The notes below the pieces were generated by a model. The model saw only the letters and a program-made list of their open reading frames with translations. It was not told where the DNA came from and did not search any database. Source: Armatimonadota bacterium (lineage in GTDB: Bacteria; Sysuimicrobiota; Sysuimicrobiia; Sysuimicrobiales; Sysuimicrobiaceae). From it: a stretch of DNA of 64,000 bases. The position numbers and the translations under genes were made by a program. Position 1 is the stretch's first letter. The number at the start of each line of letters is the position of its first letter. Positions 35,269 through 62,928 of this stretch are shown piece by piece. The stretch spans positions 2,292 through 66,291 of the forward strand of contig JANXBY010000038.1 of assembly GCA_025060455.1 (NCBI GenBank). The letters are read 5' to 3'.

Positions 35269-36829
35269 GGGCGCGGGACGCCTGCGGACTGAGCGGGGCG
35301 GGTCGGGGTTCGGGCAGAACTTCCGCGCGGGAGCCCTGACCCCGGAAGTGGTGGACCCACGAGCACGTACCCCGCACCTCTTCCGGCACAGGAGCCACCC
35401 ACGTGGCTTCCCACTGCAACACGCGGCCCGTGTGCTTGGCCAGCCGGTACACGCGCGCGTGGATGCACTCCCGGTCGCCGAACTCACAGGTGTTGCCGTC
35501 GGTGCCGCCGCAGGGGCCGTTGGCGAGGCCCTTGGGGCAGGTCTCCGGGCACACGAAGAAGGTGTGCGGCAGCCGACACGACCCGCACATCTGGCAGCCC
35601 AGCCAGCCGCCCTTGAGGGCGTGCTCCACCCGGCCCAAAGCCCTGCCGGCAGCGCTGCGGGGGTCGGTGCGAGCCACCAAAGCTCCCGCCGCGCGGGCCA
35701 GGGGCGAGCCGTGGTCGAACACCCAACGGTCCAAGGCCTGCAGGATCCGGAACCGGCGGATCTCCGCGGGGGAGGCCAGGGCGTCGTAGGGTGGGGCGTC
35801 CAGGTAGAAGGGGTCTTCGGGGACCAGCCGCACCGGTCGGCGGTCAGGGTGCCGCATGAACTCGTCCCACGCGGACTCCCAGGATCTCAAGTCCGGGCAG
35901 TCGCGCCGCCACCGCTCCACCGCGTCGAGGAGCTCCTCGAGGGTGCGCGGGGTGTGGGCGCCGCACACGTGGGCGCCGGCGAGCCCGAGCCGGGCCGCGC
36001 CTACCACCTGCAGCGCGGCCCGCAGGATGGCCCTCTGGCGGCCGTGGTCCGGAGCCTTTGCTTCTGCCTCAAGACACCGCAGCAGGTCCGGAGGCACGTA
36101 CACCCCCGGCAGAGTAGCTCCCTGCAGGAGCCGCGCGGCCAGCCGGGGAGTGAGCAGCCACACGGTGGCCAGCACCGGGGGGTGCAGGCCCCGCCGGCCC
36201 AACCAGCCCGCCAGCTCCACCAGCTTGCGGGGATCCCACCCGATCTGGGTGATCAACAGGTCCGCGCCTGCCCGCAGCTTCTTAGCGGCCTTCACGTACT
36301 GGCCCAGCAGGGCTTCCTCCCGGTACTTAAAGGGGTTCACTGCCGCGGCCAGCAGGGAGTCCGGAAGCTCGTGGCGGGCCATGCGCAGAGCGTCCACGGA
36401 GTCCAGGTAGCGGGCAGATCCCTCCCGGGGAGGCTCCCTCAGGGCATCTCCGGTCAGGAACAAGAAGCTCTGAAGCCCACCCGTGCGGGCGCGCTCCAGG
36501 TCCCGCTGGAGGTGTAAGGCGGTGCGGCCCTTGCCTGCCCAGTGGACGAGCGGGACGGTCCCGGTGACCTCCGCTACCCGCAAGGCGACCGAGATGGGGT
36601 CGTGGTCGCGATCCGTCCGCACCCGGTCGGAGACGGTAATGGCCGTTGCCCGCCCGTCCTCTTGCAGCCAGCGGGCGAGTGCCGTGACTTCCGACACCAC
36701 ATCCTCCAGGGGCTTTGAGCCCAGGAGGGGCGGTGACTCCACGGTGAGGGCGAAGCCTCTCCGGCCCAGGACCTCCGCGAGGCGGCTCCGGTACCCGCGG
36801 CCGGTGCCCGAGGAGGCGTCGTGCCCCAT
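35261..36829 (-). CDS. Methylenetetrahydrofolate reductase (MetF-like) fused to an MTHFR C-terminal zinc-ribbon domain (MetV-like)
   Basis: About 523 aa from ATG 36829 (MGHDASSG...). N-terminal MTHFR TIM-barrel. C-terminal CQMCGSCRLPHTFFVCPETCPKGLANGPCGG...CEFGDREC cysteine cluster characteristic of MetV. Start ATG overlaps the upstream ligM-like stop (ATGA). The 37057 ORF start is rejected. Confidence 0.8.
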   Translation of the reverse strand: MGHDASSGTGRGYRSRLAEVLGRRGFALTVESPPLLGSKPLEDVVSEVTALARWLQEDGRATAITVSDRVRTDRDHDPISVALRVAEVTGTVPLVHWAGKGRTALHLQRDLERARTGGLQSFLFLTGDALREPPREGSARYLDSVDALRMARHELPDSLLAAAVNPFKYREEALLGQYVKAAKKLRAGADLLITQIGWDPRKLVELAGWLGRRGLHPPVLATVWLLTPRLAARLLQGATLPGVYVPPDLLRCLEAEAKAPDHGRQRAILRAALQVVGAARLGLAGAHVCGAHTPRTLEELLDAVERWRRDCPDLRSWESAWDEFMRHPDRRPVRLVPEDPFYLDAPPYDALASPAEIRRFRILQALDRWVFDHGSPLARAAGALVARTDPRSAAGRALGRVEHALKGGWLGCQMCGSCRLPHTFFVCPETCPKGLANGPCGGTDGNTCEFGDRECIHARVYRLAKHTGRVLQWEATWVAPVPEEVRGTCSWVHHFRGQGSRAEVLPEPRPAPLSPQASRALR

Positions 36830-38226
36830 CAGCGGCGTGTCACCGCCGCCCGGTACTGGCGTGCGGCCTCCGAGAAGGGAACGGGCGCCACGGAGGCGCG
36901 GATCTCCACCTGCACGTGGGGCTCCACGCTGGGCTTGCGCGACCCGCCGCCCTCCTCGCCCCAGACCACCACCACCCGCGTCCCGGGGGTGCTGTAGGGT
37001 TCCTCCACGACGGCCAACGACAGCATGGCGTGGTCGTTCCAGCTGTAGCCCGGCCACATGGAGAACCCGACCACTTCACCACGGTCGTTGAGCACCTTGT
37101 CGTACATCCAGGTGGCGTACTGGGACACCGGGAGGTCGATGTACTTGGCCTGCTGGCCGGACGGCTTGGTGAACAACGTCCCGAAGGCCTGGGCCACGTC
37201 GTCCCCGTCCCACACCAGGGTCACCCTCCTGCGGTGGGGACCCTTGGCCTTGGCCTCCAGGGCGTCGCGGCCCACGAAGTCGTGGTCAAACTTCAGGATG
37301 TGGCCGTACCCCAGCTCCCACGGGGTGAGGTAGTAGTCCTCCACGTTGCGGGAGAAGAAGCTCCCGCCCAGGGAGCCCACCGCTTCGTAGCTGTTCGCGG
37401 GTAGCCACTGGCGGTACGGCCGCAGCTCCTCGCCGGTGTAGATGGCGGGGAGGGGGCAGGGGATCCACCCGGAGTCCAGGGCGTTGGTGGCGTATGCCCG
37501 GGAGCCAACCTGCCGCAGCCCGAACTCCTGGCCCGCCTCGACGATGGCCGCCTTCACCGCGGGCCCATCCTCGAAGGGCCCGAACAGCTCGGCCCCCGCC
37601 ACGCCTGCCATGCCGTGGTGCAGCATGCGCACCCTCCGGCCCGCGATGGTGATCCAGCCCATGTGGAAGAACTTCACATCTGGCAGCGGGCCGCCGTTGA
37701 GCTTCTCCAGCAGGGCGGGAGCGTTGGGGCCCTGCAACTGGTAGCGGTACACCTTCCGGGGCCGGTGGGGGTCCAGCACCGACCACTCGTCCCGCTCCAG
37801 CTGCACGTCGTAGCCGCCGGTCTGGGCGTGGTACTGGACCCAGTTGTGGGCAGAGGGCCGGCCCACCAACTGAAAGCTCTCGCGGTCCAGGTAGAACAGG
37901 ATGCCGTCCCCGATCACGTAGCCCGCGGGAGTGCACACCACCAGCTGCTTGGCCCGGCCGGGCTCGAAGTTCTTGAAGCTGTTGATGGCCAGACGCTCCA
38001 GCAGCCGGAAGGCGTCGGGGCCCCGCACGTACAGGTCCGTCATGTGGTAGGAGAGGTCGTAGAGGGCCACCGTCTCCCGCCAGGACCGCTGCTCGTCCCG
38101 CCAGTTGGTGAACTCCGGGGGCACCACGGGGTAGATCCGGGTGCCCGTGCGGTTGTTGTACAGGAACTCGGCGATGTTGGGCACCGAGTCCAAGACCTCC
38201 TGAAGGTTGCGCGGCGCGGCGCTCAC
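36829..38226 (-). CDS. Tetrahydrofolate-dependent aromatic O-demethylase (LigM/DesA-like), copy 2
   Basis: 465 aa, collinear with copy 1 and with LigM. High GC, native-like composition. Confidence 0.85.
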   Translation of the reverse strand: MSAAPRNLQEVLDSVPNIAEFLYNNRTGTRIYPVVPPEFTNWRDEQRSWRETVALYDLSYHMTDLYVRGPDAFRLLERLAINSFKNFEPGRAKQLVVCTPAGYVIGDGILFYLDRESFQLVGRPSAHNWVQYHAQTGGYDVQLERDEWSVLDPHRPRKVYRYQLQGPNAPALLEKLNGGPLPDVKFFHMGWITIAGRRVRMLHHGMAGVAGAELFGPFEDGPAVKAAIVEAGQEFGLRQVGSRAYATNALDSGWIPCPLPAIYTGEELRPYRQWLPANSYEAVGSLGGSFFSRNVEDYYLTPWELGYGHILKFDHDFVGRDALEAKAKGPHRRRVTLVWDGDDVAQAFGTLFTKPSGQQAKYIDLPVSQYATWMYDKVLNDRGEVVGFSMWPGYSWNDHAMLSLAVVEEPYSTPGTRVVVVWGEEGGGSRKPSVEPHVQVEIRASVAPVPFSEAARQYRAAVTRR

Positions 38227-38256
38227 CGTCCTCCCCCCTTTCGGTGTGTTCGCCCC

Positions 38257-39267
38257 TTAACGCTTCGCCTCCGCACGGCCGGCAGCCACTTCCACGGGCG
38301 GTGTGCCGTACGTGTGGAAGGTGGCCACCGTGGGCAGGCCCCATGCCTGCCCCTTCTTGCGCTCCGCCTCGCTCCAGACCACCGGCTTCCAGTCCGGAGC
38401 CAGCAGCAGGCGGGCCCCGGGGCAGGCGATCTCGAACCGGTTCCCCCCAGGCTCGTACACGTACAGGAAGAAGGTCTGCTGGATCGCGTGCTTGTGCGGC
38501 CCGGTCTCGATGGGGACCCCATACTCCAGGCAGACGTCCGCGGCCCGCAGCACCTCCTCCCGGCTGTCCACCGCGTAGGTGAGGTGGTGGAAGCGACCGC
38601 GGCAGCCGGTGGCGTCCTCGGTGATGGCCAGGTCGTAGGTCTTGTTGCACACCGTCAGCCACGCGCCCTTCTCCGAGCCGTCGTCGAACACGACGGCTTC
38701 CGTGAGACGGAACCCCAGCACCTCCTGGAAGAACCGACGGCTGGTCCGGACGTCCGCGGCGAAAAAGTTCACGTGGTCCAGGCGGCGCAGGTTGCAGCCG
38801 CGGGCGGGAAATCGGGAGGCCTGGTTCTTGAGGGCAGGCCGGGTGTCGGGGGTCGGCCGGTACCACTCCACCTCGTACAGCAGCTCCAGCAGGTGGCCGT
38901 CGGGGTCCCGGAAGCGGTAGGCGGGACCGTGGCCCAGGTCGCCGTCTACCCAGCCTTCCCCGAGCCCCGACCGCTCCACCGCCTCCACGCGCCGCTGTAG
39001 GGCTTCGGGGCTGGTGGCCCGGAAGGCGCAGTGGCCCATGCCCGGGTACGGGGAGGCGGTGACCTTGAGGGTGTGGTGGGCGTAGTCGTCCCACCCTCGC
39101 AGGTACACGGACTCGCCCTGCCGGCCGCTCTGCACCAACCCCATGACCTCCGTGAAGAAGCGGACCGTGTCCTCGAGTTTGGGGGTGAGCAACTCCACGT
39201 GGCTGAGGTGGGCCACATCGAAGCTTAGGGGTCCCACGCTGAACTTCAGTTCCTCCACACCGACCAC
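38257..39267 (-). CDS. Type I extradiol ring-cleavage dioxygenase (catechol 2,3-dioxygenase-like), copy 2
   Basis: 336 aa, paralog of 12738-13718 (FSVGPLSFDVAHLSHVELLTP...HHLTYAV...YVYEPGGNRFE). Confidence 0.9.
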   Translation of the reverse strand: MVGVEELKFSVGPLSFDVAHLSHVELLTPKLEDTVRFFTEVMGLVQSGRQGESVYLRGWDDYAHHTLKVTASPYPGMGHCAFRATSPEALQRRVEAVERSGLGEGWVDGDLGHGPAYRFRDPDGHLLELLYEVEWYRPTPDTRPALKNQASRFPARGCNLRRLDHVNFFAADVRTSRRFFQEVLGFRLTEAVVFDDGSEKGAWLTVCNKTYDLAITEDATGCRGRFHHLTYAVDSREEVLRAADVCLEYGVPIETGPHKHAIQQTFFLYVYEPGGNRFEIACPGARLLLAPDWKPVVWSEAERKKGQAWGLPTVATFHTYGTPPVEVAAGRAEAKR

Positions 39268-43122: not shown

Positions 43123-43199
43123 TGGTCGGGCCGGGCGGATTTGAACCGCCGACCTCCTGAACCCCATTCAGGTGCGCTCCCAGGCTGCGCTACGGCCCG
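43123..43199 (-). tRNA. tRNA-Pro (anticodon GGG)
   Basis: 77-nt cloverleaf read on the minus strand: CGGGCCG acceptor stem, GCGC D-stem, anticodon loop AUGGGGU (U33, GGG, G37), GGCGG/CCGCC T-stem with UUCAAAU loop, discriminator A, encoded CCA. Confidence 0.85.
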
Positions 43200-54527: not shown

Positions 54528-55877
54528 GTGCGTTCCCACACCCTGCGCGTGTTCATCCTGCTGACCCTGGCTGCGGCGTCCTTCCAGGTGGTGTTCCAGC
54601 CTGTGCGCCTGGACGGCTGGCGGCCCTCCTGGCAACCCCCACAGCCCCGCCTGCGGCTGGGGCTGGACCTGCAGGGCGGCACCCGGATCGTGCTGGAGGC
54701 GGAGCGCCGGCCCGGGGTGGACGTGACCCCCGACAAGGTGGACGCGGCCATGCGGGTCATCGAGAACCGCATCGACGCCCTGGGCGTGGCCGAGCCCCTG
54801 TTGCAGCGGCAGGGCCAGGACCGCATCATCGTGGAGTTCCCGGGCCTGCAGGACCCTCAGCGGGCCAAAGAGCTCATCGGCCGCACCGCCCTGCTGGAGT
54901 TCGTGGACACCGACCACCAGAGCCTGCCCCGGGGCGCGGAGTGGCTGCCGGACAACCGGAGGGTGCGGCTGCCGGACGGGCAGGTGGTGCCGCTCCCCAA
55001 GAAGGTGGTGGTCACGGGTGCGGACCTGCGGGACGCCCGCGCGGAGTTCGACCAGCAATCCCTGCAGTGGCTGGTGCGGTTCCGGTTCGGCGGTGAAGGC
55101 GCGCGGAAGTTCGAGGAGCACACCGGCCGCAGCATCGGGGAGTACCTCACCATCGTTCTGGACAACCGTGTGCTCTCCTCGCCCGTGATCCGCGCCCGCA
55201 TTCCCGGTGAAGGCGTGATCGAGGGCAGCTTCACCGCGGACGAGGCGCGGGACCTGGCCATCCTGCTGCGGGGTGGGGCGCTTCCGGTGCCCGTCCGGCC
55301 GGTGGAGGAGCGCACCGTGGGACCCACCTTGGGCCGGGACTCCATCGACCGCAGCCTCCGGGCCGGCTGGATCGCCGCGGTGGCGGTGGTGGTGTTCGTA
55401 AGCCTGTACTACCGGCTGCCCGGAGTTCTGGCGTCGCTGTCCCTGGGCCTGTTCGCCCTGCTGGTGCTGGGCCTGCTGGCGAGCCTGGGCGCCACCCTCA
55501 CCCTGCCCGGGATCGCGGGGATCATCCTCAGCGTGGGAATGGCGGTGGACGGCAACGTGATCATCTTCGAGAAGATGAAGGAAGAGCTGCGGGCGGGTAA
55601 GACCGTGCGGGCCGCGGTGGCCGCGGGCTGGCGGAGAGGCCTGGTGACCATTTTGGACTCCAACGTGACTACCCTCATCGGCGCCGCGGTGCTGCTGTGG
55701 CTGGGTACCGGCCCCATCCGGGGCTTCGCGGTGACCCTCACCCTGGGTGTGCTGGCGTCCATGTTCACCGCGGTCCTGGCCACCCGCTGGCTGGTGGAGC
55801 TGTGCGCGGACCTCGGCCTGGGAGGTTCGCTGGCGCGGGTGGCGGACCTGCCGCGGGCGCGGGAGGTGGCGGCGTGA
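54528..55877 (+). CDS. secD: Protein translocase subunit SecD
   Basis: 449 aa with periplasmic domain and C-terminal transmembrane bundle ([12 protein letters not shown]). Confidence 0.9.
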
Positions 55878-56830
55878 GGGCCTGGAACCTCATGGGGAAC
55901 CGGCGGTGGCTCTACCTGGCCTCTGCCCTGGTGGTGGTGGCCAGCCTGGCGGCCATGGCCGTCCAGCCCGCCCTGGGCCGGCCGGTGTTGAACTGGGGCG
56001 TGGACTTCACCGGCGGCACCCTGATCACCTTCCGGTTCCAGGACCGGTCGGTGTCCACGGGGCAGGTGCGGGCCGGGCTGCAGCCTCTGGGGCTGGGAGA
56101 AGCGGTGATCCAGAAGGTGCAGGAGACGGGCGACATCTCCGTGCGCACCCGTCACCTGGAGCCGGAGGAGCGCCGCCGGGTGGAGCAGGTTCTGCGGGAG
56201 CGGGTGGGATCGTTCACGGTGCTGAGCGTAGACGACGTGGGGCCCAAGATCGGCCGCGAGCTGCGGAACATCGCCATCCTCGGGGTGGCGTTGGGGCTGG
56301 CCCTGCAGGTGGTGTACGTGTCGTTGCGCTTCCGGTCGGTGCGGTTCGCGGTGGCCGCGGACCTAGCCCTGCTCCATGACCTGCTGCTGGTCCTCGGCGT
56401 GTTCGCCCTGACCCGCGCCACCGTGGACAGCAGCTTCGTGGCGGTCCTGCTCACCGTGGTGGGATACTCCATCAACGACACCATCGTGGTCTTCGACCGG
56501 GTACGGGAGAACCTGCAGCTGCGGGGCCGGGAGCCGTTCGCGGACCTGGTGAACCGCAGCGTCCTGGAGGCCCTGGTCCGGTCCCTGAACACCGCCCTTA
56601 CGACCCTGCTGGCCATCGGAAGCGTGTACCTGTTCGGCGGGCCCACCGTCCGCGACTTCGCCCTGGGGCTGACGGTGGCGGTGCTCACCGGCGGGTGGTC
56701 GTCCATCGGGGTGGCGAGCCCGATCCTGGTGGACCTGACGGAGTGGGCGGAGCGACGCGCAGGCCAGGTGGCGGTGCAACCTGCCGCCCGGCCCGCCCGG
56801 GCGGCCGCCACCGGCCGCCGCCGCTCCTAG
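55874..56830 (+). CDS. secF: Protein translocase subunit SecF
   Basis: GTG overlapping the secD stop (alternative ATG at 55892). Typical SecF transmembrane pattern (VGYSINDTIVVFDR). Confidence 0.9.
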   Translation: MRAWNLMGNRRWLYLASALVVVASLAAMAVQPALGRPVLNWGVDFTGGTLITFRFQDRSVSTGQVRAGLQPLGLGEAVIQKVQETGDISVRTRHLEPEERRRVEQVLRERVGSFTVLSVDDVGPKIGRELRNIAILGVALGLALQVVYVSLRFRSVRFAVAADLALLHDLLLVLGVFALTRATVDSSFVAVLLTVVGYSINDTIVVFDRVRENLQLRGREPFADLVNRSVLEALVRSLNTALTTLLAIGSVYLFGGPTVRDFALGLTVAVLTGGWSSIGVASPILVDLTEWAERRAGQVAVQPAARPARAAATGRRRS

Positions 56831-56920: not shown

Positions 56921-57229
56921 ATGCGCCTTCTAAGCGCGGTGGGGTTCGTCCTGGCGGTGCTCTCGGTGGTGCTCATGCTGAGCAACGCCGGCACCTCCGA
57001 TCGCTACCCGCTGCGCCTTGCGGGCTGGACGGTGTTGCACGACACCCTCCCCACCCTGCTGGTCCTGGCCCTGTTCGCCGGCGCCACCATCGCGGGCCTG
57101 CCCCTGAGCCTGGCTAACTGGTGGCTGCGCAGGCGCGTGGCGGGCCTGGAGCGCGAGCTTCGGGCGGCGCGGCAGGCCCACGCTCCGAGGGGACCTGCGC
57201 CGGCTTCGCGGGAGGGGTCGGGGCTGTGA
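56921..57229 (+). CDS. Small two-helix membrane protein (hypothetical)
   Basis: 102 aa. Two hydrophobic helices, then a basic C-terminus. Stop overlaps the recJ GTG. Confidence 0.4.
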   Translation: MRLLSAVGFVLAVLSVVLMLSNAGTSDRYPLRLAGWTVLHDTLPTLLVLALFAGATIAGLPLSLANWWLRRRVAGLERELRAARQAHAPRGPAPASREGSGL

Positions 57230-60200
57230 CGGCCGCGCGGTGGCCGCGCAGCCGCCGGTGGACCTTCTGCCCCGTTCACCCCCAAAGGGACGACCTGGCG
57301 CGCGACCTCGGGCTGCTGCCCGTCACCGCGCAGCTGCTGGCGGCGAGAGGCTGGGTGGACCCCGAGGCCGCGGACCGTTTCCTGCGTGCTCCCCTGGAAA
57401 CGCTGACCCCCCCGAGCCGCCTTCCGGGACTGCCGGAGGCGGCCCGCGTGGTCTGGGAGTCCGCGCGGCAGGGACGGCGGATCACCGTGTATGGAGACTT
57501 CGACGCGGACGGCGTGTGCGCGACGGCGGTCCTGGTCCGCGGGCTGCGCGCCCTGGGCGTGCACGCGGAAGCTTACGTCCCGCACCGGTTGCACGAGGGC
57601 TACGGTCTGCATGCGGAGGCGGTGCGCAGGCTCGCGGAGTCCGGCACGGGCTGCCTGGTGGCCGTGGACTGCGGGGTGGGCGCGCTGAGCGAGGTCGCGC
57701 TGGCCAAGCACCTTGGAATGGCGGTCGTGGTGGTGGACCACCACGAGCCTCCTCCGGTGCTCCCCGCTGCGGACGCCGTGGTGGACCCGAAGGTGGCGGA
57801 CCTGCCGTACCCCTTCCGCGGCTACTGCGCCTCGGGGCTCGCGTGGCAGCTGGTGGCCGCCCTGCGCGCACTTGCGGGGGCGCTGGCCACCGAGGAGCTG
57901 CTGGAGCTGGCCGCGGTGGGGACGGTGGCAGACGTGGTGCCGCTGGTGGACGACAACCGCGTGATCGTGCGCCACGGCCTGCGTCGTCTGGCGGAGGCGC
58001 CGGTGGTAGGCCTGCGGGCGCTGCTGCGCGCCGCGGGGCTGGAAGCTCCGGTGGACGCGGACGACGTGGCGTGGAGGCTTGCGCCGCGGCTCAACGCGGC
58101 CGGGAGGGTGGACACCGCCCACACCGCCTTGAAGCTCCTCCTCACGGATGACCCTCAGGAAGCTCAGGAGCTGGCCGCGCAGCTGGAACGCCACAACGCG
58201 CACCGCCAGCGCCTGCACGACCACGCCCTGGGCCAGGCCCTGGCGGCGGTGGAAACCGAAGGGCTGGCAGACCGTCCCGGGATCGTGGTGTGGGGTGAGG
58301 GATGGCACCCCGGCGTGGTAGGTCTGGTGGCGGGCAAGCTGCGTGAGGCGTACTGGAGGCCCGCCGTGGCCCTGGCGGTGGAGGGGGACAAAGCCCGCGG
58401 GTCTGCCCGGGGGACGCCGGAGGTAGACCTGGTGGAGGTGCTGGGGGAGTGTGCGGCGCTGCTGGATCGGTTCGGAGGCCACGCCGCCGCGGCGGGCCTG
58501 GAGCTGCCTGCGCACCGGCTGGGGGAGTTCCGCCGGCGGTTCGAAGAGGCGGTGTCCGCGCGGGTCTGCCCGGACCGGCTGGTGCCTGAGCTGGTGGTGG
58601 AAGCGCAGGTGGAGCTGGCTGACATTACCGACCGGCTGGTGGAAGAGCTGTCGCGGCTGGAGCCATACGGGGCAGGTAACCCGAGGCCGGTGCTGGCGGT
58701 CCGGGGCCTAAGGCCGCTGGAAGTGGCGGTCTGGGGCACGGGGGAGCACCTGTGGCTGCGGGTGTGCGACGGCCTCCAGGTTGCGGACGCGGTGGGCTTC
58801 GGGTTGGGCGGCTGGGGTGAGGTGGTGGCGTTCGTCCAGCCGGAGCTGGAGCTTGCCGGCTACCCCGAGCGCGACCGGTGGCAGGGGGGCGGGTTCCGGT
58901 GGGTGGTGGAGGACCTGCGGGCGCCGGGGCTGGAGCCGGACAGGGTCCTCACCGACACGGCCCTGCTCCTGCGGCGCCTGGCGGACCGAGCGGACGACTA
59001 CCTGGCCGAGGCTTTCCGCGCCGTGGAAGTCCGGCCGGCTTTCTTCACCAAAGTGGTGGGGGTGAGCTTCGAGGGTCGCCAGGACGTGGTGGCGCAGCTT
59101 GCGCCGGGCGAAGAGCTGGCGCTGCGGCGCGAGCCGGACAACCCCGTAGACCCCCACGCCGTCCAGGTGGTAAGGCGGGACGGGGCGGTGGTGGGCTACC
59201 TGAACTCCGCCCTGGCGGGCCGGCTGGCGCCGTACCTGGACCGGGGCGTCCGCTACCGCGCCACGGTTACCGCGGTCACCGGCGGCGGAGACCGGCACAG
59301 GGGCGTGAACCTGCGCGTAGAGCAGGATGCCCCTCAACCCCGAGCTTCCTGGGTGCGGTTCGCGCTGCAGGCTACAGACAGGAATCTCCACCAGCTGGGA
59401 AGGCTGCTGTGGGCGGGGGACTGCGTGGGCGACGAGCTCCGGGGGGCGCTCGGGCGGCTACAGGAGGGCGCGCGGGTGGCGGTGGTGAGCGGCCCGCGGC
59501 CGGAGTGCGCCCGGCTGGCACTGCTCGCGGTTGCCTCCCACGCGCTAGGGGGCCGGCCTGCGTTGGTGGTGTGCTCCCTGGCGGAGCTGGCCGATGCCCG
59601 GTGGCAAGGGTGGAAAGGCGCCCTGGAGAGGGTCGGCTTGCAGGTCGGCCGGCTGCACGGTTTGGTGGGCCGCGGCGAGCTGCAGGAGGCTGAGCAGCTC
59701 GCGAAGGCTGGCGTGCTGGACGTGGTATTCACCACGCCCACGTACGTGGGCCGGCGGCCGGAGGTGGTCTCGCGCGGTTGCCTGGTGGTGGCGGAGGGGT
59801 GGTCGGACGGCCAGCTGCCCCCGGAGCTGGCCGCGCACGAGGGACCCTTGCTGTGGGTGGTGTGGGACCCCGCGCTGAGGCCGGCGGGTTGGGAGGTATT
59901 TGGCCTTTCGGAGGCCCGCAGCTCTGTGCGCGTGGTGGACGCCCGGCGCCGGGAGAAGACCGTGGAGGACCTGCTGCGGCAGCGGCCCGGCCTCCTGTTC
60001 GCGGCCGGGCCCGCTTCCGCCGTGGAGCTGTCCCGCTCGCTGTCCTCCGGGATGCGGGTGGCCTATGACCACCCGGGGCTCCCCTCCGCGGTGCGGGAAA
60101 CCCTGGTGGGGCTGTTCAACCAGGGTAAGCTGGACGGCCTGGTGTGCGGTGGCACGGCCCCGGAAGGTGTGCGCGCGGGCTTTCGGGCGTGGCTGGCCCC

Positions 60201-60711
60201 CACGGCCCGGGAGGTGTTCCTACAGCAGGCCGGCTGCGGGCTTGAGGACCGGGACGGGGCGACCCTCGTGCTGGCCTTCGGGCCGGAGGCGCTGCACCGG
60301 GCCCGGCTGGAGTGGAACAGCCGGCACCCGCCACGCAAGGCCCTGGCGGCCATCTACCGCCTCCTGCGGCAGCTACCCGGACAACCCCGGTGGCCGGACG
60401 ACGAGTTGGCCGCGCGGGTACGGGACTCCACCGGCCTGGATCCCCGGCTGGCGGTCCCCGCGGCGTTGAGCGTCCTGGAGGCGGCGGAGCTGGTGCGCAG
60501 GGAACGGGCAGCCGGCGGATGGCGGGTGGAGCTGTGCCCCTCCGAGGGCCGGAAGGACCTGGGGGCGGTACTGCGTTTCGCGGAAGGGGAGCGGAGCCGC
60601 GCGGCGTTTGAAGCTGGGGCCCGGTGGCTGGTCGGTTGCCCGGCGGTGGAGGTTCTGGAGCGGGTGGCCTCGGGCTCGGTTGCCGGCCGCGCGCCCTCGG
60701 GTGCAGGATAA
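57226..60711 (+). CDS. recJ: Single-stranded-DNA exonuclease RecJ with C-terminal HIRAN domain and degenerate RecQ-like helicase module
   Basis: 1161 aa from GTG 57226. DHH (VYGDFDADGV, DHH), DHHA1 and OB-fold core to about 58900. HIRAN-like stretch about 59051-59285 (VVGVSFEGRQDV...GEELALRREPDNPVDPHAVQVV...VVGYL). SF2/RecQ-like segment about 59380-60170 with Walker A replaced by GPRPECAR and DEAH replaced by AEGW. Confidence 0.85.
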   Translation: MTAARWPRSRRWTFCPVHPQRDDLARDLGLLPVTAQLLAARGWVDPEAADRFLRAPLETLTPPSRLPGLPEAARVVWESARQGRRITVYGDFDADGVCATAVLVRGLRALGVHAEAYVPHRLHEGYGLHAEAVRRLAESGTGCLVAVDCGVGALSEVALAKHLGMAVVVVDHHEPPPVLPAADAVVDPKVADLPYPFRGYCASGLAWQLVAALRALAGALATEELLELAAVGTVADVVPLVDDNRVIVRHGLRRLAEAPVVGLRALLRAAGLEAPVDADDVAWRLAPRLNAAGRVDTAHTALKLLLTDDPQEAQELAAQLERHNAHRQRLHDHALGQALAAVETEGLADRPGIVVWGEGWHPGVVGLVAGKLREAYWRPAVALAVEGDKARGSARGTPEVDLVEVLGECAALLDRFGGHAAAAGLELPAHRLGEFRRRFEEAVSARVCPDRLVPELVVEAQVELADITDRLVEELSRLEPYGAGNPRPVLAVRGLRPLEVAVWGTGEHLWLRVCDGLQVADAVGFGLGGWGEVVAFVQPELELAGYPERDRWQGGGFRWVVEDLRAPGLEPDRVLTDTALLLRRLADRADDYLAEAFRAVEVRPAFFTKVVGVSFEGRQDVVAQLAPGEELALRREPDNPVDPHAVQVVRRDGAVVGYLNSALAGRLAPYLDRGVRYRATVTAVTGGGDRHRGVNLRVEQDAPQPRASWVRFALQATDRNLHQLGRLLWAGDCVGDELRGALGRLQEGARVAVVSGPRPECARLALLAVASHALGGRPALVVCSLAELADARWQGWKGALERVGLQVGRLHGLVGRGELQEAEQLAKAGVLDVVFTTPTYVGRRPEVVSRGCLVVAEGWSDGQLPPELAAHEGPLLWVVWDPALRPAGWEVFGLSEARSSVRVVDARRREKTVEDLLRQRPGLLFAAGPASAVELSRSLSSGMRVAYDHPGLPSAVRETLVGLFNQGKLDGLVCGGTAPEGVRAGFRAWLAPTAREVFLQQAGCGLEDRDGATLVLAFGPEALHRARLEWNSRHPPRKALAAIYRLLRQLPGQPRWPDDELAARVRDSTGLDPRLAVPAALSVLEAAELVRRERAAGGWRVELCPSEGRKDLGAVLRFAEGERSRAAFEAGARWLVGCPAVEVLERVASGSVAGRAPSGAG

Positions 60712-60714
60712 GGT

Positions 60715-62928
60715 ATGACCACCCGGCTGGATGCGGGTGTGCCGCAGGGAGTGGAGCTGCCCGCGGAGATGCAGCGGCTGCTGGAGCGGGTCCGGGAGAT
60801 CCAGCCCCAGGCGGACCTGGACCTGCTGAGGCGGGCGTACGCGTTCGCGGCCCGGGCCCACGAGGGCCAGGTGCGGCGCTCCGGAGAGCCCTACGTGATG
60901 CACTCCGTGGCTGTGGCCCAGATCCTGGCGGACCTGCGCATGGACGCCACCACGGTGGCCGCCGCCCTGCTGCACGACGTCCCCGAGGACACGCCCCAGA
61001 CCCTGGACGAACTCCGGCGGGAGTTCGGGGACGAGATCGCCACCCTGGTGGACGGGGTCACCAAGCTGGGCAAGATCCAGTGGCGCAGCCAGGAAGAGAA
61101 GCAGGCGGAAAACCTGCGCAAGATGTTCCTGGCCATGGCCAGCGATGTGCGGATCATCCTCATCAAGCTGGCCGACCGGCTCCACAACCTGCGCACCATG
61201 CACGTGATGCCCCCCGAGCACCAGCGCCGGAAGGCCCGGGAGACCCTAGAGATCTACGCGCCGCTGGCCAAGCGCCTGGGGATCGGGCAGCTGCAGAACG
61301 AGCTGGAGGACCGGGCCTTCGCCATCCTGGAGCCGGAGGCGTACCGGGAGATCGTGGAGTCCCTGCGGGAGGCGCAGCAGCAGCAGGAGGACGTGCTGCG
61401 GACCATCCAGGAGGAGCTGTACCGGGAGCTCAACCGGGCCGGCATCCGGGTGGAGCGGCAGCACATCACCGCCCGGCCCAAACATGCCTACAGCATCTAC
61501 CGGAAGATGCAGCGGCCCGAGTACCAGGGGCAGGGCATCGCCCGCATCTACGACCGGCTGGGGGTGCGGGTCATCGTGGACGACGTGAAGGACTGCTACG
61601 CGGCTTTGGGGGTGGTGCACTCCCTGTGGCGGCCCATCCCGGGGGAGTTCGACGACTACATCGCCAATCCCAAGCCCAGCGGCTACCAGTCCCTGCACAC
61701 CACCGTCATCTACCGGGGCCAGCCCCTGGAGATCCAGATCCGCACCCACCGGATGCATCAGGAGGCGGAGTACGGCATCGCCGCCCACTGGCGATACAAG
61801 GAAGGCAAGGCAGGGACCCGGGACCGGTCCTTCGAGGAGAAGCTGTCCTGGCTGCGCCAGCTCTTGGAGTGGCACCAGGAGATGCAGGACGCCCAGGAGT
61901 TCATGCGGTCGGTGAAGCTCGACCTGTTCCGCAACGAGGTGTTCGTGTTCACCCCCAAGGGGGACGTGGTGGACCTGCCCAGCGGCGCGACCCCCGTGGA
62001 CTTCGCTTACCGCATCCACACCGACGTGGGCCACCGGTGCGTGGGGGCCAAGGTGAACGGCCGGCTGGTGCCCCTCAGCTATCGGCTGCGGAGCGGGGAC
62101 ATCGTGGAGATCCTTACCTCCAAGACGTCTCCAGGGCCGAGCCGGGACTGGCTGGAGTTCGTGGTCACCAGCAACGCCCGTACCAAGATCCGCCAGTGGT
62201 TCCGCCGGCAGCAGCGGGAAGAGAACGTGGCCCGCGGCAAGGAGATGCTGGAGCGGGAGCTGCGGCGCCTGGGCCTGCTGTCCACGCTCCTGCGGGCGGA
62301 GCGGATCAAGGAGGCGTGCGAGAAGCTGCAGGTCCCCACCGAGGAGGATCTGTACGCCGCCCTGGGCAACGGCGACCTGACCCTCCTGCAGGTGGTGCAC
62401 GCCCTGGGGGGACCGCCCGCGCCCAGCCCGGAACCCGCCGCGCCCCAGGCCCAGCCTTCCGCCGCGGCGCCGGCCAGGGGGCTGCGTGTCCGGGGCGTGG
62501 ACAACGTGCTCATGACCCTGGCCCGGTGCTGCATGCCCCTGCCTGGGGACGACGTGGTGGGCTACATCACCCGGGGGCGGGGCGTGACGATTCACCGCCG
62601 GGACTGCCGGAACCTGGACTACCTGCGCCAGCACGGGGAGCGGCTGCTGGAGGTGGAGTGGGAGCCGTCCCCGGACGGCAGCTACCCCGTGGAGATCCAG
62701 GTGGAGGCCCTAGACCGCGTGGGCCTGCTCAAGGACGTCCTCAGCGCGGTGGCGGACACCCGCACCAACGTGCTTTCGGTGAACGCCCACGTGCGCCGCG
62801 ACAAGGTGGGCGTGATCCACCTCACGGTGGACATCCGGAACGTAGGCCAGCTGACCGCAGTCCTCCAGCGGATCGGCAAGCTGCCCGACGTGTACCGGGT
62901 GGAACGGCTGACCGCGGGCGGCCGGTAG
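60715..62928 (+). CDS. relA: Bifunctional (p)ppGpp synthetase/hydrolase RelA/SpoT
   Basis: 737 aa. HD domain (HDVPEDT), synthetase domain (RPKHAYSIYRK, GYQSLHTTV), TGS and ACT domains. Confidence 0.95.
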   Translation: MTTRLDAGVPQGVELPAEMQRLLERVREIQPQADLDLLRRAYAFAARAHEGQVRRSGEPYVMHSVAVAQILADLRMDATTVAAALLHDVPEDTPQTLDELRREFGDEIATLVDGVTKLGKIQWRSQEEKQAENLRKMFLAMASDVRIILIKLADRLHNLRTMHVMPPEHQRRKARETLEIYAPLAKRLGIGQLQNELEDRAFAILEPEAYREIVESLREAQQQQEDVLRTIQEELYRELNRAGIRVERQHITARPKHAYSIYRKMQRPEYQGQGIARIYDRLGVRVIVDDVKDCYAALGVVHSLWRPIPGEFDDYIANPKPSGYQSLHTTVIYRGQPLEIQIRTHRMHQEAEYGIAAHWRYKEGKAGTRDRSFEEKLSWLRQLLEWHQEMQDAQEFMRSVKLDLFRNEVFVFTPKGDVVDLPSGATPVDFAYRIHTDVGHRCVGAKVNGRLVPLSYRLRSGDIVEILTSKTSPGPSRDWLEFVVTSNARTKIRQWFRRQQREENVARGKEMLERELRRLGLLSTLLRAERIKEACEKLQVPTEEDLYAALGNGDLTLLQVVHALGGPPAPSPEPAAPQAQPSAAAPARGLRVRGVDNVLMTLARCCMPLPGDDVVGYITRGRGVTIHRRDCRNLDYLRQHGERLLEVEWEPSPDGSYPVEIQVEALDRVGLLKDVLSAVADTRTNVLSVNAHVRRDKVGVIHLTVDIRNVGQLTAVLQRIGKLPDVYRVERLTAGGR

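What the first reader, a model, noticed from the sequence alone, without database searches (positions are those of the whole stretch)
57226..60711. RecJ exonuclease naturally fused to a HIRAN domain and a catalytically degenerate RecQ-like helicase module
The ORF is uninterrupted for 1161 codons. This is about 400-500 aa longer than typical bacterial RecJ. After the DHH/DHHA1/OB core comes a clear HIRAN-like stretch (VVGVSFEGRQDV...LRREPDNPVDPHAVQVV...VVGYL). HIRAN domains recognise 3'-OH ends at stalled forks in eukaryotic HLTF. Next comes a segment collinear with RecQ RecA-like domains 1 and 2, but with Walker A (GPRPECAR) and DEAH (AEGW) destroyed, then a possible winged-helix tail. RecJ and RecQ act together in the RecF pathway. 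A single polypeptide combining the 5'-3' nuclease, a 3'-end sensor and a pseudo-helicase scaffold has, to my knowledge, not been described.
Basis: partly seen in the sequence, partly recalled or inferred. Interest (0 to 1): 0.75.

Follow-up and report, generated by a model that had tools for sequence, protein, structure and literature searches.

The report
RecJ nuclease fused to dead helicase
This is the bacterium's ordinary recJ DNA-repair nuclease gene, permanently fused to a DNA-3'-end-binding HIRAN domain and a RecQ-type helicase module whose ATP-burning residues have all been lost; relatives in other bacteria keep the same fusion with a working helicase, and I found no paper that describes either form.

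Summary
Window 57226-60711 (+) is one 1161-codon gene.

**Domains**
- The RecJ core is intact (TIGR00644, 454 bits, above cutoff).
- A HIRAN domain follows (Pfam E 2.4e-14).
- The gene ends in a winged-helix tail.

**ATPase motifs**
- Walker A reads GPRPECA, DExH reads AEGW, and motif VI reads QQAGCGLEDRDG. All are destroyed.

**Not an assembly artefact**
- More than 100 independent homologues share the architecture.
- The secD-secF-recJ-relA gene order is conserved.

- Every one of 138 relatives in this clade lacks the catalytic residues. The clade matches the uncultivated phylum CSP1-3/Sysuimicrobiota, and the 138 form one clade in a tree.
- About 78 more distant proteins keep GxGKS, DExH and GRxGRDG. 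Most are RecJ-HIRAN-helicase fusions, including those of cultured Thermincola.
- The dead module is under purifying selection (dN/dS 0.26).
- The tail belongs to long RecJs, not to the RecQ RQC region.

**Likely role (inferred):** an ATP-independent module that recognises DNA structure and targets RecJ.

Databases call all of these simply RecJ. I found no literature on them.

The parts
57226..60711 (+). Whole gene: recJ-HIRAN-pseudohelicase, 1161 aa plus TAA stop
   Evidence: ORF and translation. Identical to GenBank MCS7235591.1/MDW8156202.1, named 'RecJ [Armatimonadota bacterium]'. The full-length AF2 model has pLDDT 92.4 and pTM 0.88.
57211..57228 (+). Shine-Dalgarno GGAGG (57211-57215) and GTG start (57226-57228), which overlaps the TGA of the upstream ORF
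   Evidence: Read directly from the sequence. The same 4-nt overlap occurs in L002.
57478..57924 (+). DHH domain (aa 85-233) with the catalytic motifs GDFDADG, VDCG and DHH; GTVAD follows at aa 232-236
   Evidence: Pfam PF01368 E 8e-20. The motif residues are invariant across 117 homologues. Coordinates.
58282..58557 (+). DHHA1 domain (aa 353-444) including GGHAAAAG
   Evidence: Pfam PF02272 E 1.4e-14. G417, G418 and H419 are invariant.
58600..58887 (+). RecJ OB-fold domain (aa 459-554)
   Evidence: Pfam PF17768 E 8e-17. Matches solved RecJ structures 5f54, 8y30 and 2zxo, E 1e-74 to 1e-86.
58921..59037 (+). Helical linker (aa 566-604) between the OB fold and HIRAN, with the conserved motif DRADDYL
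   Evidence: AF2 helices 578-602 with pLDDT about 80-90. The standalone HIRAN-helicase P0173 starts exactly here.
59038..59325 (+). HIRAN domain (aa 605-700) with the conserved NPxD (NPVD, aa 639-642)
   Evidence: Pfam PF08797 E 2.4e-14, or 4.7e-16 when scanned alone. Pairwise phmmer to the human HLTF HIRAN gives E 1e-5. The model shows a beta-barrel.
59326..59910 (+). RecA-like lobe 1 of the RecQ-derived module (aa 701-895), ATPase-dead
   Evidence: The family profile aligns to E. coli RecQ aa 23-355. AF2 pLDDT is above 90. dN/dS is 0.30.
59491..59511 (+). Walker A relic GPRPECA (aa 756-762). The position of RecQ K53 is Cys and that of S54 is Ala.
   Evidence: hmmalign to E. coli RecQ and the motif census. 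Coordinates.
59791..59802 (+). DExH relic AEGW (aa 856-859). The position of RecQ E147 is Gly.
59911..60285 (+). RecA-like lobe 2 (aa 896-1020) with conserved VDxR and AYDHPGLPxxVR (RecQ FDRPN and YHAGL equivalents)
   Evidence: dN/dS is 0.13, as constrained as the RecJ core.
60223..60258 (+). Motif VI relic QQAGCGLEDRDG (aa 1000-1011). Both arginine-finger positions are lost (Cys and Glu).
60286..60675 (+). Winged-helix domain plus two-helix tail (aa 1021-1150) with the conserved motif DL..S/VLRF/Y.EG.R
   Evidence: AF2 topology is H-H-H-beta-beta followed by two helices. A tail HMM hits the C-termini of 811-960-aa RecJs with E down to 1e-21. There are sub-threshold PF10141 hits. Weak matches to ArsR wHTH proteins and to the RecJ 8y30 C-terminus.
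56921..57229 (+). Upstream 102-aa membrane ORF (LapA_dom-like), translationally coupled to recJ
   Evidence: Pfam PF06305 E 6.6e-6, just below cutoff. Conserved upstream of the long recJ in L002, L003 and L007.
54528..56830 (+). secD (54528-55877) and secF (ends at 56830), the conserved upstream neighbours
   Evidence: Pfam. Synteny in relatives.
60715..62928 (+). relA/spoT (737 aa), starting 3 nt after the recJ stop
   Evidence: Pfam HD_4, RelA_SpoT, TGS and ACT. Synteny in relatives.

Best explanation
**What it is (shown)**
This is the housekeeping recJ of a bacterium of the uncultivated phylum CSP1-3, also called GAL15 or Candidatus Sysuimicrobiota, which NCBI labels Armatimonadota. It sits in the conserved secD-secF-recJ-relA operon-like block. 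It encodes one rigid multidomain protein, in this order:
- a catalytically intact RecJ 5'-3' single-strand DNA exonuclease core (DHH, DHHA1, OB);
- a HIRAN domain;
- a two-lobed SF2 module of RecQ ancestry;
- a winged-helix C-terminal domain shared with other long RecJs.

**How it arose (shown, except 'one inactivation event', which rests on a quick tree)**
- The protein descends from a RecJ-HIRAN-RecQ-like helicase fusion.
- That fusion still exists with intact GxGKS, DExH and GRxGRDG motifs in Thermincola, in Clostridia and Bacillota metagenome-assembled genomes (MAGs), and in at least one Actinomycetota MAG.
- In the lineage leading to this gene the Walker A lysine, the motif II glutamate, both motif VI arginines and the aromatic-rich loop were lost. 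A neighbour-joining tree places all the dead forms in one clade, which suggests a single loss.
- The fold and many residues unrelated to the ATPase stayed under purifying selection.

**How it most likely works (inferred)**
- The C-terminal half no longer unwinds DNA. It acts as an ATP-independent module that recognises and holds DNA structures.
- HIRAN caps a free 3'-OH single-stranded end, as it does in HLTF.
- The dead RecQ-like lobes and the winged helix hold the adjoining strand or duplex at a single-strand/duplex junction.
- Together they place or license the RecJ active site on the 5' strand of gaps, stalled or reversed forks, and break ends.
- The ancestral active form would be a one-polypeptide version of the RecQ+RecJ resection pair of the RecF pathway. 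This clade keeps the targeting function without the motor.
For: **Anatomy**
- Pfam and NCBIfam domains.
- RecJ catalytic residues D91/D93/D95, D148, D171-H172-H173, D236 and G417-G418-H419 are invariant across 117 homologues and present here.
- HIRAN matches the HLTF HIRAN.
- The family profile matches RecQ best among all solved helicases: 4tmu 1e-18, 1oyw 2.5e-15, RECQ4 3.6e-15, against Hel308 1e-12 and Mfd/RecG about 1e-11.
- The profile scores 59 bits over E. coli RecQ aa 23-355.
- The AF2 model of the module has pLDDT 92.8 and pTM 0.92.

**Dead motifs**
- Across 117 homologues, no K was tallied at the Walker A lysine position (the tally shows only the eight commonest residues: R 53, W 22, G 14, L 10 and so on).
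- No E was tallied at the motif II glutamate (G 66, A 19 and so on). R326 has no R tallied, and R329 is R in 6.
- The per-sequence classification places none of those 117 in the intact-motif class.

**Origin**
- Of the module-bearing proteins in hand that could be classified (216), 78 have intact motifs and 138 are dead.
- The dead ones form one clade in a neighbour-joining tree (138 of 138).
- The window protein aligns end to end with the active Thermincola ferriacetica RecJ: 31% identity, E 4e-179.
- In the active forms the helicase part is best matched by the recQ models TIGR01389 (1e-52 to 1e-59) and TIGR00614.

**Still functional**
- dN/dS against a 90%-identical orthologue is 0.26 for the module, 0.13 for lobe 2 and 0.136 for the RecJ core.
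- The full-length model has pTM 0.88, meaning a confident fixed arrangement of domains.

**Housekeeping locus**
- The secD-secF-small ORF-recJ-relA order is conserved in three relatives.

**Taxon**
-, plus PMC11604079.

**Background**
- RecJ alone digests 5'-tailed DNA. RecQ is needed at blunt or 3'-tailed ends (PMC4846377).
- HIRAN recruits HLTF to forks and binds a single-stranded dinucleotide in a conserved cavity (PMC4666394).
Against: - No biochemical data exist for any member, so DNA binding by the dead module and by this HIRAN is inferred.
- HLTF Y93, which stacks on the bound base, is Val here (NPVD). The binding pocket may therefore differ.
- dN/dS comes from one sequence pair.
- The NJ tree is a quick identity-distance tree. 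Fast-evolving dead sequences could cluster artificially.
- I could not check whether these genomes also carry a separate recQ. That bears on whether the module replaces a helicase or docks one.
Confidence: 0.6

Rival explanations
1. The C-terminal half is mainly a protein-docking scaffold. It recruits a separate motor or partner to RecJ, such as a true RecQ, UvrD, a HerA-like ATPase, SSB or RecA. DNA is not its main ligand.
For: - The extra C-terminal domain of Deinococcus RecJ mediates binding to HerA, and a C-terminal element binds the SSB tail (PMC4663267; PMC4846377).
- The most conserved part shared by the active, dead and helicase-less long RecJs is the winged-helix tail. That would fit a conserved partner-binding element.
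Against: - HIRAN and the SF2 lobes are nucleic-acid-binding folds.
- Lobe 2, which contacts DNA in RecQ, is the most constrained part (dN/dS 0.13).
- No candidate partner gene is conserved next to recJ.
Confidence: 0.2
2. The module is a decaying relic with no function of its own. It is retained only because removing it would destabilise RecJ.
For: - All catalytic motifs are gone.
- Lobe 1 and the tail evolve two to three times faster than the RecJ core.
- Other RecJs of 811-960 aa keep only the tail, and some keep partial lobes. This suggests the helicase part can be lost.
- Four relatives lack a Pfam-detectable HIRAN.
Against: - dN/dS is 0.26, far below 1.
- The full fold is preserved across 138 sequences that share only about 35% identity.
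- Many residues unrelated to the ATPase are invariant: H811-G812, D905/R907, Y947/H949/P953, R1117, E1120 and G1121.
Confidence: 0.1
3. The module still binds or hydrolyses a nucleotide through non-canonical residues. For example, many relatives have Arg in place of the Walker lysine (GPGRGR). It would then act as a slow switch rather than a motor.
For: In 53 of 117 relatives the Walker A lysine position is Arg, and the glycine-rich loop GPGRG is conserved.
Against: - In the window protein the loop is GPRPECA, with no basic or hydroxyl residue.
- The motif II Glu is Gly, and both motif VI Arg positions are lost.
- No E was tallied at the motif II position in any relative.
Confidence: 0.07
4. 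Assembly or sequencing artefact: a frameshift or chimera joined recJ to a neighbouring gene.
For: None found. The genome is about 73% G+C, so long spurious ORFs are common in the window.
Against: - More than 100 independently assembled homologues of 1100-1224 aa share the same domain order, down to 39% identity.
- These include complete genomes of cultured Thermincola.
- The neighbours are conserved.
- The single-chain model is confident throughout.
Confidence: 0.01

Closest known systems
Bacterial RecJ (TIGR00644; structures from Thermus thermophilus 2zxo, Deinococcus radiodurans 5f54, and 8y30)
   Same: - DHH, DHHA1 and OB core with every catalytic residue.
- Scores above the equivalog cutoff.
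- Sits in the usual recJ genomic position next to secDF and relA.
- Lineage-specific C-terminal additions to RecJ are known. The Deinococcus-Thermus CTD enhances DNA binding and binds HerA (PMC4663267).
   Different: - It carries about 600 extra residues: HIRAN, two RecA-like lobes and a winged helix.
- The Deinococcus-Thermus domain IV is not matched.
RecJ-HIRAN-RecQ-like helicase fusions with intact motifs (e.g. Thermincola potens JR ADG82069.1 / UniProt D5XEJ8, T. ferriacetica WP_052216456.1; annotated only as RecJ)
   Same: - Same domain order from end to end.
- 31% identity over the whole length, E 4e-179.
- Same linker, same tail and same conserved tail motif (LRF/LRY.EG).
   Different: Those proteins keep GTGRGKS, DE(x)H, the HRPxY loop and GRxGRDG. 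The window protein and its whole clade have lost all of them.
RecQ family helicases (E. coli RecQ, WRN, RECQL1)
   Same: - Best sequence-profile and best structural match for the module.
- Collinear through motifs 0 to VI.
- RecQ-type signatures remain recognisable: FDRPN appears as VDxR, YHAGL..R as YDHPGLP..VR, and GRAGRDG as G.AG.DG.
- WRN is a precedent for a natural exonuclease-RecQ fusion (my own knowledge).
   Different: - No ATPase residues.
- No Zn-binding subdomain, no RQC and no HRDC.
- Even the active relatives score below the recQ_fam cutoff: 160-184 bits against 219.8.
- The tail is of RecJ type, not RQC.
HLTF/Rad5 HIRAN domain
   Same: - Significant direct similarity: E 1e-5 pairwise, and Pfam above cutoff.
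- The conserved NPxD segment is present.
- It is attached to an SF2 module, as in HLTF.
   Different: - The partner here is a RecQ-like fold rather than SNF2, and it is inactive.
- HLTF Y93 is Val here.
- The associated catalytic activity is a 5'-3' nuclease, not fork reversal or ubiquitin ligation.
Catalytically dead helicase or nuclease relatives used as scaffolds (C-terminal cassette of Brr2; Cdc45 as a dead RecJ)
   Different: No homology beyond the superfamily. This is an analogy only, and the statement about the inactive Brr2 cassette comes from my own knowledge.

Membership tests
RecJ (single-stranded-DNA-specific 5'-3' exonuclease, TIGR00644) | Whole-protein score above the curated equivalog cutoff | tested here: met
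   454.6 bits against a cutoff of 396.9, covering aa 33-553.
RecJ (single-stranded-DNA-specific 5'-3' exonuclease, TIGR00644) | DHH-family metal-binding motifs (DxD, D, DHH, D) and the DHHA1 GGH motif | tested here: met
   GDFDADG at aa 90-96, VDCG at 147-150, DHH at 171-173, GTVAD at 232-236 and GGHAAAAG at 417-424. All are invariant in 117 homologues.
RecJ (single-stranded-DNA-specific 5'-3' exonuclease, TIGR00644) | RecJ-type OB fold after DHHA1 | tested here: met
   PF17768 E 8e-17, aa 459-554.
RecJ (single-stranded-DNA-specific 5'-3' exonuclease, TIGR00644) | 5'-3' exonuclease activity on ssDNA | not testable with these tools
   Needs an enzyme assay.
HIRAN domain (PF08797) | Profile match above the Pfam gathering score | tested here: met
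   53.4 bits against 24.7. Scanned alone, 58.8 bits.
HIRAN domain (PF08797) | Conserved DNA-binding cavity residues (HLTF N90/N91, Y72, Y93) | tested here: inconclusive
   DNPVD aligns with HLTF NNPYD. N91 and the Asp are kept, N90 is Asp and Y93 is Val. Y72 is not covered by the alignment.
HIRAN domain (PF08797) | Binding of a free 3'-OH ssDNA end | not testable with these tools
   Needs binding assays.
SF2 helicase fold (two RecA-like lobes) | Two tandem RecA-like alpha/beta lobes | tested here: met
SF2 helicase fold (two RecA-like lobes) | Walker A GxGK[ST], motif II DExx and motif VI arginine fingers (an active ATPase) | tested here: not met
   GPRPECA, AEGW and QQAGCGLEDRDG. No K or E was tallied at the key positions in 117 relatives.
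RecQ family (TIGR00614 / TIGR01389) | Score above the curated family cutoff | tested here: not met
   The window protein has no recQ hit. Dead relative P0033 scores 52-59 bits. Active relatives score 160-184 bits against a cutoff of 219.8 for TIGR00614.
RecQ family (TIGR00614 / TIGR01389) | RecQ is the closest helicase family by profile and by fold | tested here: met
RecQ family (TIGR00614 / TIGR01389) | RQC region (Zn-binding Cys4 plus RecQ-type winged helix) after lobe 2 | tested here: not met
   - No Cys4 cluster in the window protein or in the active relatives.
- The RecQ alignment ends at aa 355, before the Zn domain.
- The tail matches long-RecJ C-termini instead.
Long-RecJ C-terminal domain (PF10141 ssDNA-exonuc_C-like) | Profile similarity of the last ~125 aa to the C-terminal domain of other long RecJs | tested here: inconclusive
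   - The family tail HMM hits 811-960-aa RecJs that have no helicase Pfam hits, with E 1e-8 to 1e-21.
- Matches to PF10141 itself are only sub-threshold: 25.4 bits against a cutoff of 26.4 in P0266, E 2e-4 in the P0173 tail, and none for the window tail.
- The tail profile matches the RecJ 8y30 C-terminus at E 0.27.

The most novel reading that the evidence does not exclude
The RecJ-HIRAN-RecQ-like proteins are a previously unrecognised class of single-polypeptide resection and fork-processing machines. In the CSP1-3 clade the motor has become an ATP-independent gate. RecJ would be licensed to degrade the 5' strand only when HIRAN has captured the neighbouring nascent 3'-OH end and the dead RecQ-like lobes have clamped the junction. 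That would be a bacterial counterpart of HLTF-type 3'-end sensing, coupled to nuclease action instead of fork reversal.
Probability: 0.3. Interest if true: 0.75.

Novelty: new variant of a known kind. Interest (0 to 1): 0.6.

Why it matters
- RecQ and RecJ are the textbook helicase-nuclease pair of the RecF pathway. How they are coordinated is unclear, and no direct contact was found in Deinococcus (PMC4846377).
- A natural covalent fusion of the two, joined through a 3'-end-binding HIRAN domain, gives a direct handle on that coupling.
- It also gives a first functional context for bacterial HIRAN domains.
- A whole phylum-level clade keeps the fold after losing every ATPase residue. That offers a natural separation-of-function experiment, comparing targeting or scaffolding with unwinding.
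- The intact orthologues from cultured Thermincola can serve as matched active controls.
- On the practical side, hundreds of database entries named only 'RecJ' hide a helicase or pseudohelicase half.

Tried and rejected
1. **Single-sequence Pfam and PDB searches of the C-terminal 473 aa.** They gave only marginal helicase hits: Helicase_C 0.037, DEAD 0.17 and Pol theta 0.25. A family profile was needed.
2. **Word-indexed homologue search with the C-terminus alone.** It found only 2 proteins. The full-length query found the family.
3. **The exhaustive representative search.** It used profile A1, which unintentionally included the RecJ_OB and HIRAN parts of P0001. Many hits are therefore plain RecJs. 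I sorted them afterwards with a C-terminal HMM.
4. **Genome-contig scans.** The scan with the single C-terminal protein found nothing. Alignment A4 was too divergent to give patterns. A1 gave 3 loci.
5. **The afdb50 fold search.** It was not available.
6. **Apparent 'intermediate' states KSEGRR and KSDGRR.** These were alignment shifts in proteins with intact DEGH/DExH, not partial decay.
7. **A tblastn hit of E. coli RecQ at window 37934-38233 (-).** E was 0.014. The ORF there has no Pfam domain, so I dismissed the hit as chance in a high-GC frame.
8. **Literature searches.** Searches for RecJ with HIRAN and for RecJ-helicase fusions returned only noise or nothing.
9. **The frameshift or artefact explanation.** Rejected on comparative grounds.
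10. **A Pfam census over the full alignment.** It exceeded the residue limit.

Full report
**1. The observation**

The window has about 73% G+C, so long ORFs occur in many frames. The frame in question, 57226-60711 (+), is validated along its whole length by domain matches and homologues.

It translates to 1161 aa ending in TAA. An in-frame GTG at 57121 would add 35 residues. Four things favour GTG 57226:
- A GGAGG lies 10 nt upstream (57211-57215).
- The GTG overlaps the TGA of the preceding 102-aa ORF.
- The same 4-nt overlap is seen in a relative (L002).
- Homologues are 1156-1166 aa long.

**2. Domain content of the N-terminal 700 residues**

- Pfam finds DHH (aa 85-233), DHHA1 (353-444), RecJ_OB (459-554) and HIRAN (606-686). 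HIRAN scores E 2.4e-14, above the gathering score.
- NCBIfam's recJ equivalog TIGR00644 scores 454.6 bits against a cutoff of 396.9.
- Solved RecJ structures match at E 1e-72 to 1e-86.
- All DHH-family catalytic motifs are present, and they are invariant in an alignment of 117 homologues: GDFDADG, VDCG, DHH, GTVAD and GGHAAAAG.
- The HIRAN segment alone matches the human HLTF HIRAN domain by pairwise phmmer (E 1e-5). DNPVD aligns with HLTF NNPYD.
- In HLTF, that segment lines the cavity that holds a single-stranded dinucleotide, and the N90/N91 double mutant loses function (PMC4666394).

**3. The C-terminal 470 residues**

*Sequence.* Taken alone, the sequence gives only marginal Helicase_C (E 0.037) and DEAD (E 0.17) hits.

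A full-length search recovered more than 100 proteins of 1100-1224 aa with the same architecture. Many carry precomputed Helicase_C hits and a few carry DEAD hits.

A profile built from 117 of them matches RecQ best among all solved helicases:

| Target | E-value |
|---|---|
| C. sakazakii RecQ (4tmu) | 1e-18 |
| E. coli RecQ (1oyw) | 2.5e-15 |
| RECQ4 | 3.6e-15 |
| Hel308 | 1e-12 |
| Mfd, RecG | about 1e-11 |

The profile aligns collinearly with E. coli RecQ residues 23-355, which cover both RecA-like lobes (59 bits).

*Structure.* An AlphaFold2 model of the region is very confident (pLDDT 92.8, pTM 0.92).
- Its best Foldseek matches are RECQL1, WRN and RECQL5, followed by Mfd and bacterial RecQs.
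- The module is therefore an SF2 two-lobe fold of RecQ-like ancestry.

**4. The ATPase is dead, here and in the whole clade**

I mapped the motifs through the alignment to E. coli RecQ:

| Motif | RecQ | Window protein |
|---|---|---|
| I (Walker A) | PTGGGKS | SGPRPECA (K53 to C, S54 to A) |
| II | DEAH | AEGW (E147 to G) |
| VI | QETGRAGRDG | QQAGCGLEDR (R326 to C, R329 to E) |

The aromatic-rich loop between motifs II and III is also gone.

Across the 117 homologues (the tally shows the eight commonest residues per position):
- No Lys was tallied at the Walker lysine position (R 53, W 22, G 14, L 10 and so on).
- No Glu was tallied at the motif II glutamate position (G 66, A 19 and so on).
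- R326 has no Arg tallied, and R329 is Arg in only 6.
- The per-sequence classification places none of these 117 in the intact-motif class.

Residues unrelated to catalysis are invariant or nearly so:
- RLHG (aa 809-812);
- VDxR (905/907), the equivalent of RecQ FDRPN;
- AYDHPGLP..VR (946-957), the equivalent of RecQ YHAGL..R;
- the tail motif LRF.EG.R.

**5. Where it came from**

An exhaustive HMMER search of 1.8 billion cluster representatives turned up two further groups:
- RecJ-HIRAN-helicase fusions of about 1200-1300 aa with strong DEAD and Helicase_C Pfam hits;
- HIRAN-helicase proteins of 630-710 aa without a RecJ part.

Their sequences show intact GTGRGKS, DE(x)H, an HRPxY loop, TATA, and QQSGRxGRDG. 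In NCBIfam their helicase part is best matched by recQ (TIGR01389, E 1e-52 to 1e-59). It also matches recQ_fam (TIGR00614, 160-184 bits, below the 219.8 cutoff).

Classification of the module-bearing proteins in hand (216 usable):
- 78 have intact motifs and 138 are dead.
- In a neighbour-joining tree of the module, all 138 dead sequences form one clade with no active member inside.
- Mean identity is 35% within the dead group, 42% within the active group and 24% between them.

Named active members include RecJ of Thermincola potens JR (ADG82069.1, UniProt D5XEJ8) and T. ferriacetica. There are also MAG proteins labelled Clostridia, Bacillota and Actinomycetota. All are annotated simply as RecJ.

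The window protein aligns end to end with the Thermincola protein: 31% identity, E 4e-179. Its aa 582-1136 align with the standalone HIRAN-helicase P0173 (E 2.6e-42).

The standalone forms sit on contigs shorter than 6 kb. They may be split genes or truncated gene calls.

**6. The tail**

The model shows a helix-helix-helix-hairpin winged-helix unit (aa 1037-1103), followed by two helices.
- A tail-only HMM hits the C-termini of many 811-960-aa RecJs that have no Pfam HIRAN or helicase domain, with E down to 1e-21.
- Two sub-threshold matches to Pfam PF10141 appear. PF10141 is the 'single-strand DNA-specific exonuclease C-terminal domain'.
- A tail profile weakly matches ArsR-type winged-helix regulators (E 0.095). 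It also matches residues 643-728 of the 757-aa RecJ structure 8y30 (E 0.27).
- There is no Zn-binding Cys cluster.

The winged helix is therefore best read as the C-terminal domain of long RecJs. HIRAN and the RecQ-like lobes lie between the OB fold and that domain. It is not a RecQ RQC element.

**7. Is the dead module still used?**

I compared the gene codon by codon with a 90%-identical orthologue (L007) using the Nei-Gojobori method:

| Region | dN/dS |
|---|---|
| RecJ core | 0.136 |
| HIRAN | 0.22 |
| Lobe 1 | 0.30 |
| Lobe 2 | 0.13 |
| Winged helix plus tail | 0.32 |
| Whole C-terminal module | 0.26 |

- All regions are under purifying selection. Lobe 1, which used to hold the ATP site, is more relaxed.
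- The full-length model has pLDDT 92.4 and pTM 0.88. For a protein of 1161 residues and about six domains, that indicates one confident, compact arrangement rather than beads on a string.
- I could not inspect the coordinates, so the geometry is not known.

**8. Context and organism**

- The gene order is valS, two enoyl-CoA hydratases, thiolase, secD, secF, a small LapA_dom membrane ORF, recJ, relA/spoT and an enoyl-ACP-reductase-like SDR. relA starts 3 nt after the recJ stop.
- The secD-secF-small ORF-recJ-relA core is conserved in three relatives. One of them lies on a 3.15-Mb contig.
- The long gene therefore occupies the conserved recJ position next to secDF and relA. This makes it most likely the organism's housekeeping recJ and not an accessory or mobile copy.
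- The identical protein is in GenBank as RecJ of an 'Armatimonadota bacterium' MAG.
- Close relatives come from 'candidate division GAL15' and from Candidatus Tepidifontimicrobium thermophilum, in the phylum Ca. Sysuimicrobiota.
- CSP1-3, GAL15 and Sysuimicrobiota are the same uncultivated phylum, formerly placed with Armatimonadota (PMC11604079). That paper does not mention RecJ.

**9. Mechanism**

*Shown:*
- an intact RecJ nuclease core;
- a bona fide HIRAN domain;
- a RecQ-derived fold without ATPase residues;
- selection on all parts;
- descent from an active fusion.

*Established background:*
- RecJ degrades ssDNA 5'-3' and can start alone on 5'-tailed duplexes. RecQ is needed at blunt or 3'-tailed ends.
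- No direct RecJ-RecQ contact was found in Deinococcus (PMC4846377).
- HIRAN recruits HLTF to forks and orients its motor (PMC4666394).

*Inferred:*
- The active fusions are one-polypeptide RecQ+RecJ resection or fork-processing enzymes with a built-in 3'-end sensor.
- In the CSP1-3 clade the C-terminal half has become an ATP-independent DNA-structure recognition and clamping module. It targets or licenses RecJ at gaps, stalled or reversed forks, or break ends.

*Rivals (detailed separately):* a protein-docking scaffold, a functionless relic, a non-canonical nucleotide switch, and an artefact. The last is excluded.

**10. Novelty**

- All parts are known domains, and nuclease-helicase fusions are known in principle (WRN, AddAB, Dna2; my own knowledge).
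- The architecture is abundant in databases but labelled only RecJ.
- Full-text searches for RecJ with 'HIRAN domain', and for RecJ-helicase or RecJ-RecQ fusions, found no description. The library lacks many subscription papers.
- I rate it a new variant of a known kind. It is of moderate to good interest because it offers a natural, testable link between RecQ, RecJ and 3'-end sensing, together with a natural ATPase-dead series.

Noticed in passing
window 56921-57229 (+): A 102-aa LapA_dom-like membrane ORF lies between secF and recJ. Its TGA overlaps the recJ GTG start (GTGA). A small ORF in this position is conserved in relatives (L002, L003, L007). Its link to recJ, if any, is unknown.
   Followed up: partly
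proteins P0235, P0199, P0240, P0266, P0242, P0213 and others (not in the window): RecJs of 811-960 aa share the same winged-helix tail but have no Pfam-detectable HIRAN or helicase domain. They carry 150-390 uncharacterised residues between the OB fold and the tail. P0219 (1162 aa) keeps only Helicase_C. P0177 (915 aa), in the exhaustive search, matched only the lobe 2 and tail part of the profile, and Pfam finds no helicase domain in it. This looks like a series of progressive loss of the helicase part.
   Followed up: partly
proteins P0173, P0174, P0178, P0202, P0166, P0228 (not in the window): These are HIRAN + active RecQ-like helicase + RecJ-type tail proteins of 630-710 aa without a RecJ core. 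They start exactly at the linker that follows the OB fold in the fusions. The three whose contig length was looked up (P0173, P0174, P0178) sit on contigs of 3.5-5.9 kb. They may be split recJ genes or truncated gene calls. JGI even named one 'single-stranded-DNA-specific exonuclease'.
   Followed up: no
protein P0169 (1848 aa, not in the window): A giant protein with three RecJ_OB, three DHH and two DHHA1 stretches plus a Toprim-like hit. It appears to be a tandem multi-RecJ and also ends with the same tail.
   Followed up: no
proteins P0022, P0023, P0025, P0068 (dead clade, 1100-1109 aa): These members of the dead clade have no precomputed Pfam HIRAN hit, although they align through that region. 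HIRAN may also be decaying in a sub-lineage.
   Followed up: no
window 60709-60717: The recJ TAA stop and the relA/spoT ATG are separated by only 3 nt (taaGGTatg). This suggests co-transcription and possibly coupled translation of the repair nuclease and the stringent-response synthetase, an adjacency conserved in the relatives.
   Followed up: partly
window 43123-43199 (-): This is the only RNA gene found in the 64-kb window: tRNA-Pro (GGG). No other Rfam family reaches its gathering score.
   Followed up: yes
window 37286-39094 (-): A 602-aa ORF with no Pfam hit gave a weak tblastn match to E. coli RecQ (E 0.014). It is probably a spurious high-GC ORF overlapping real genes on other frames. 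The neighbouring ORF at 35261-37057 (-) is MTHFR-like.
   Followed up: partly
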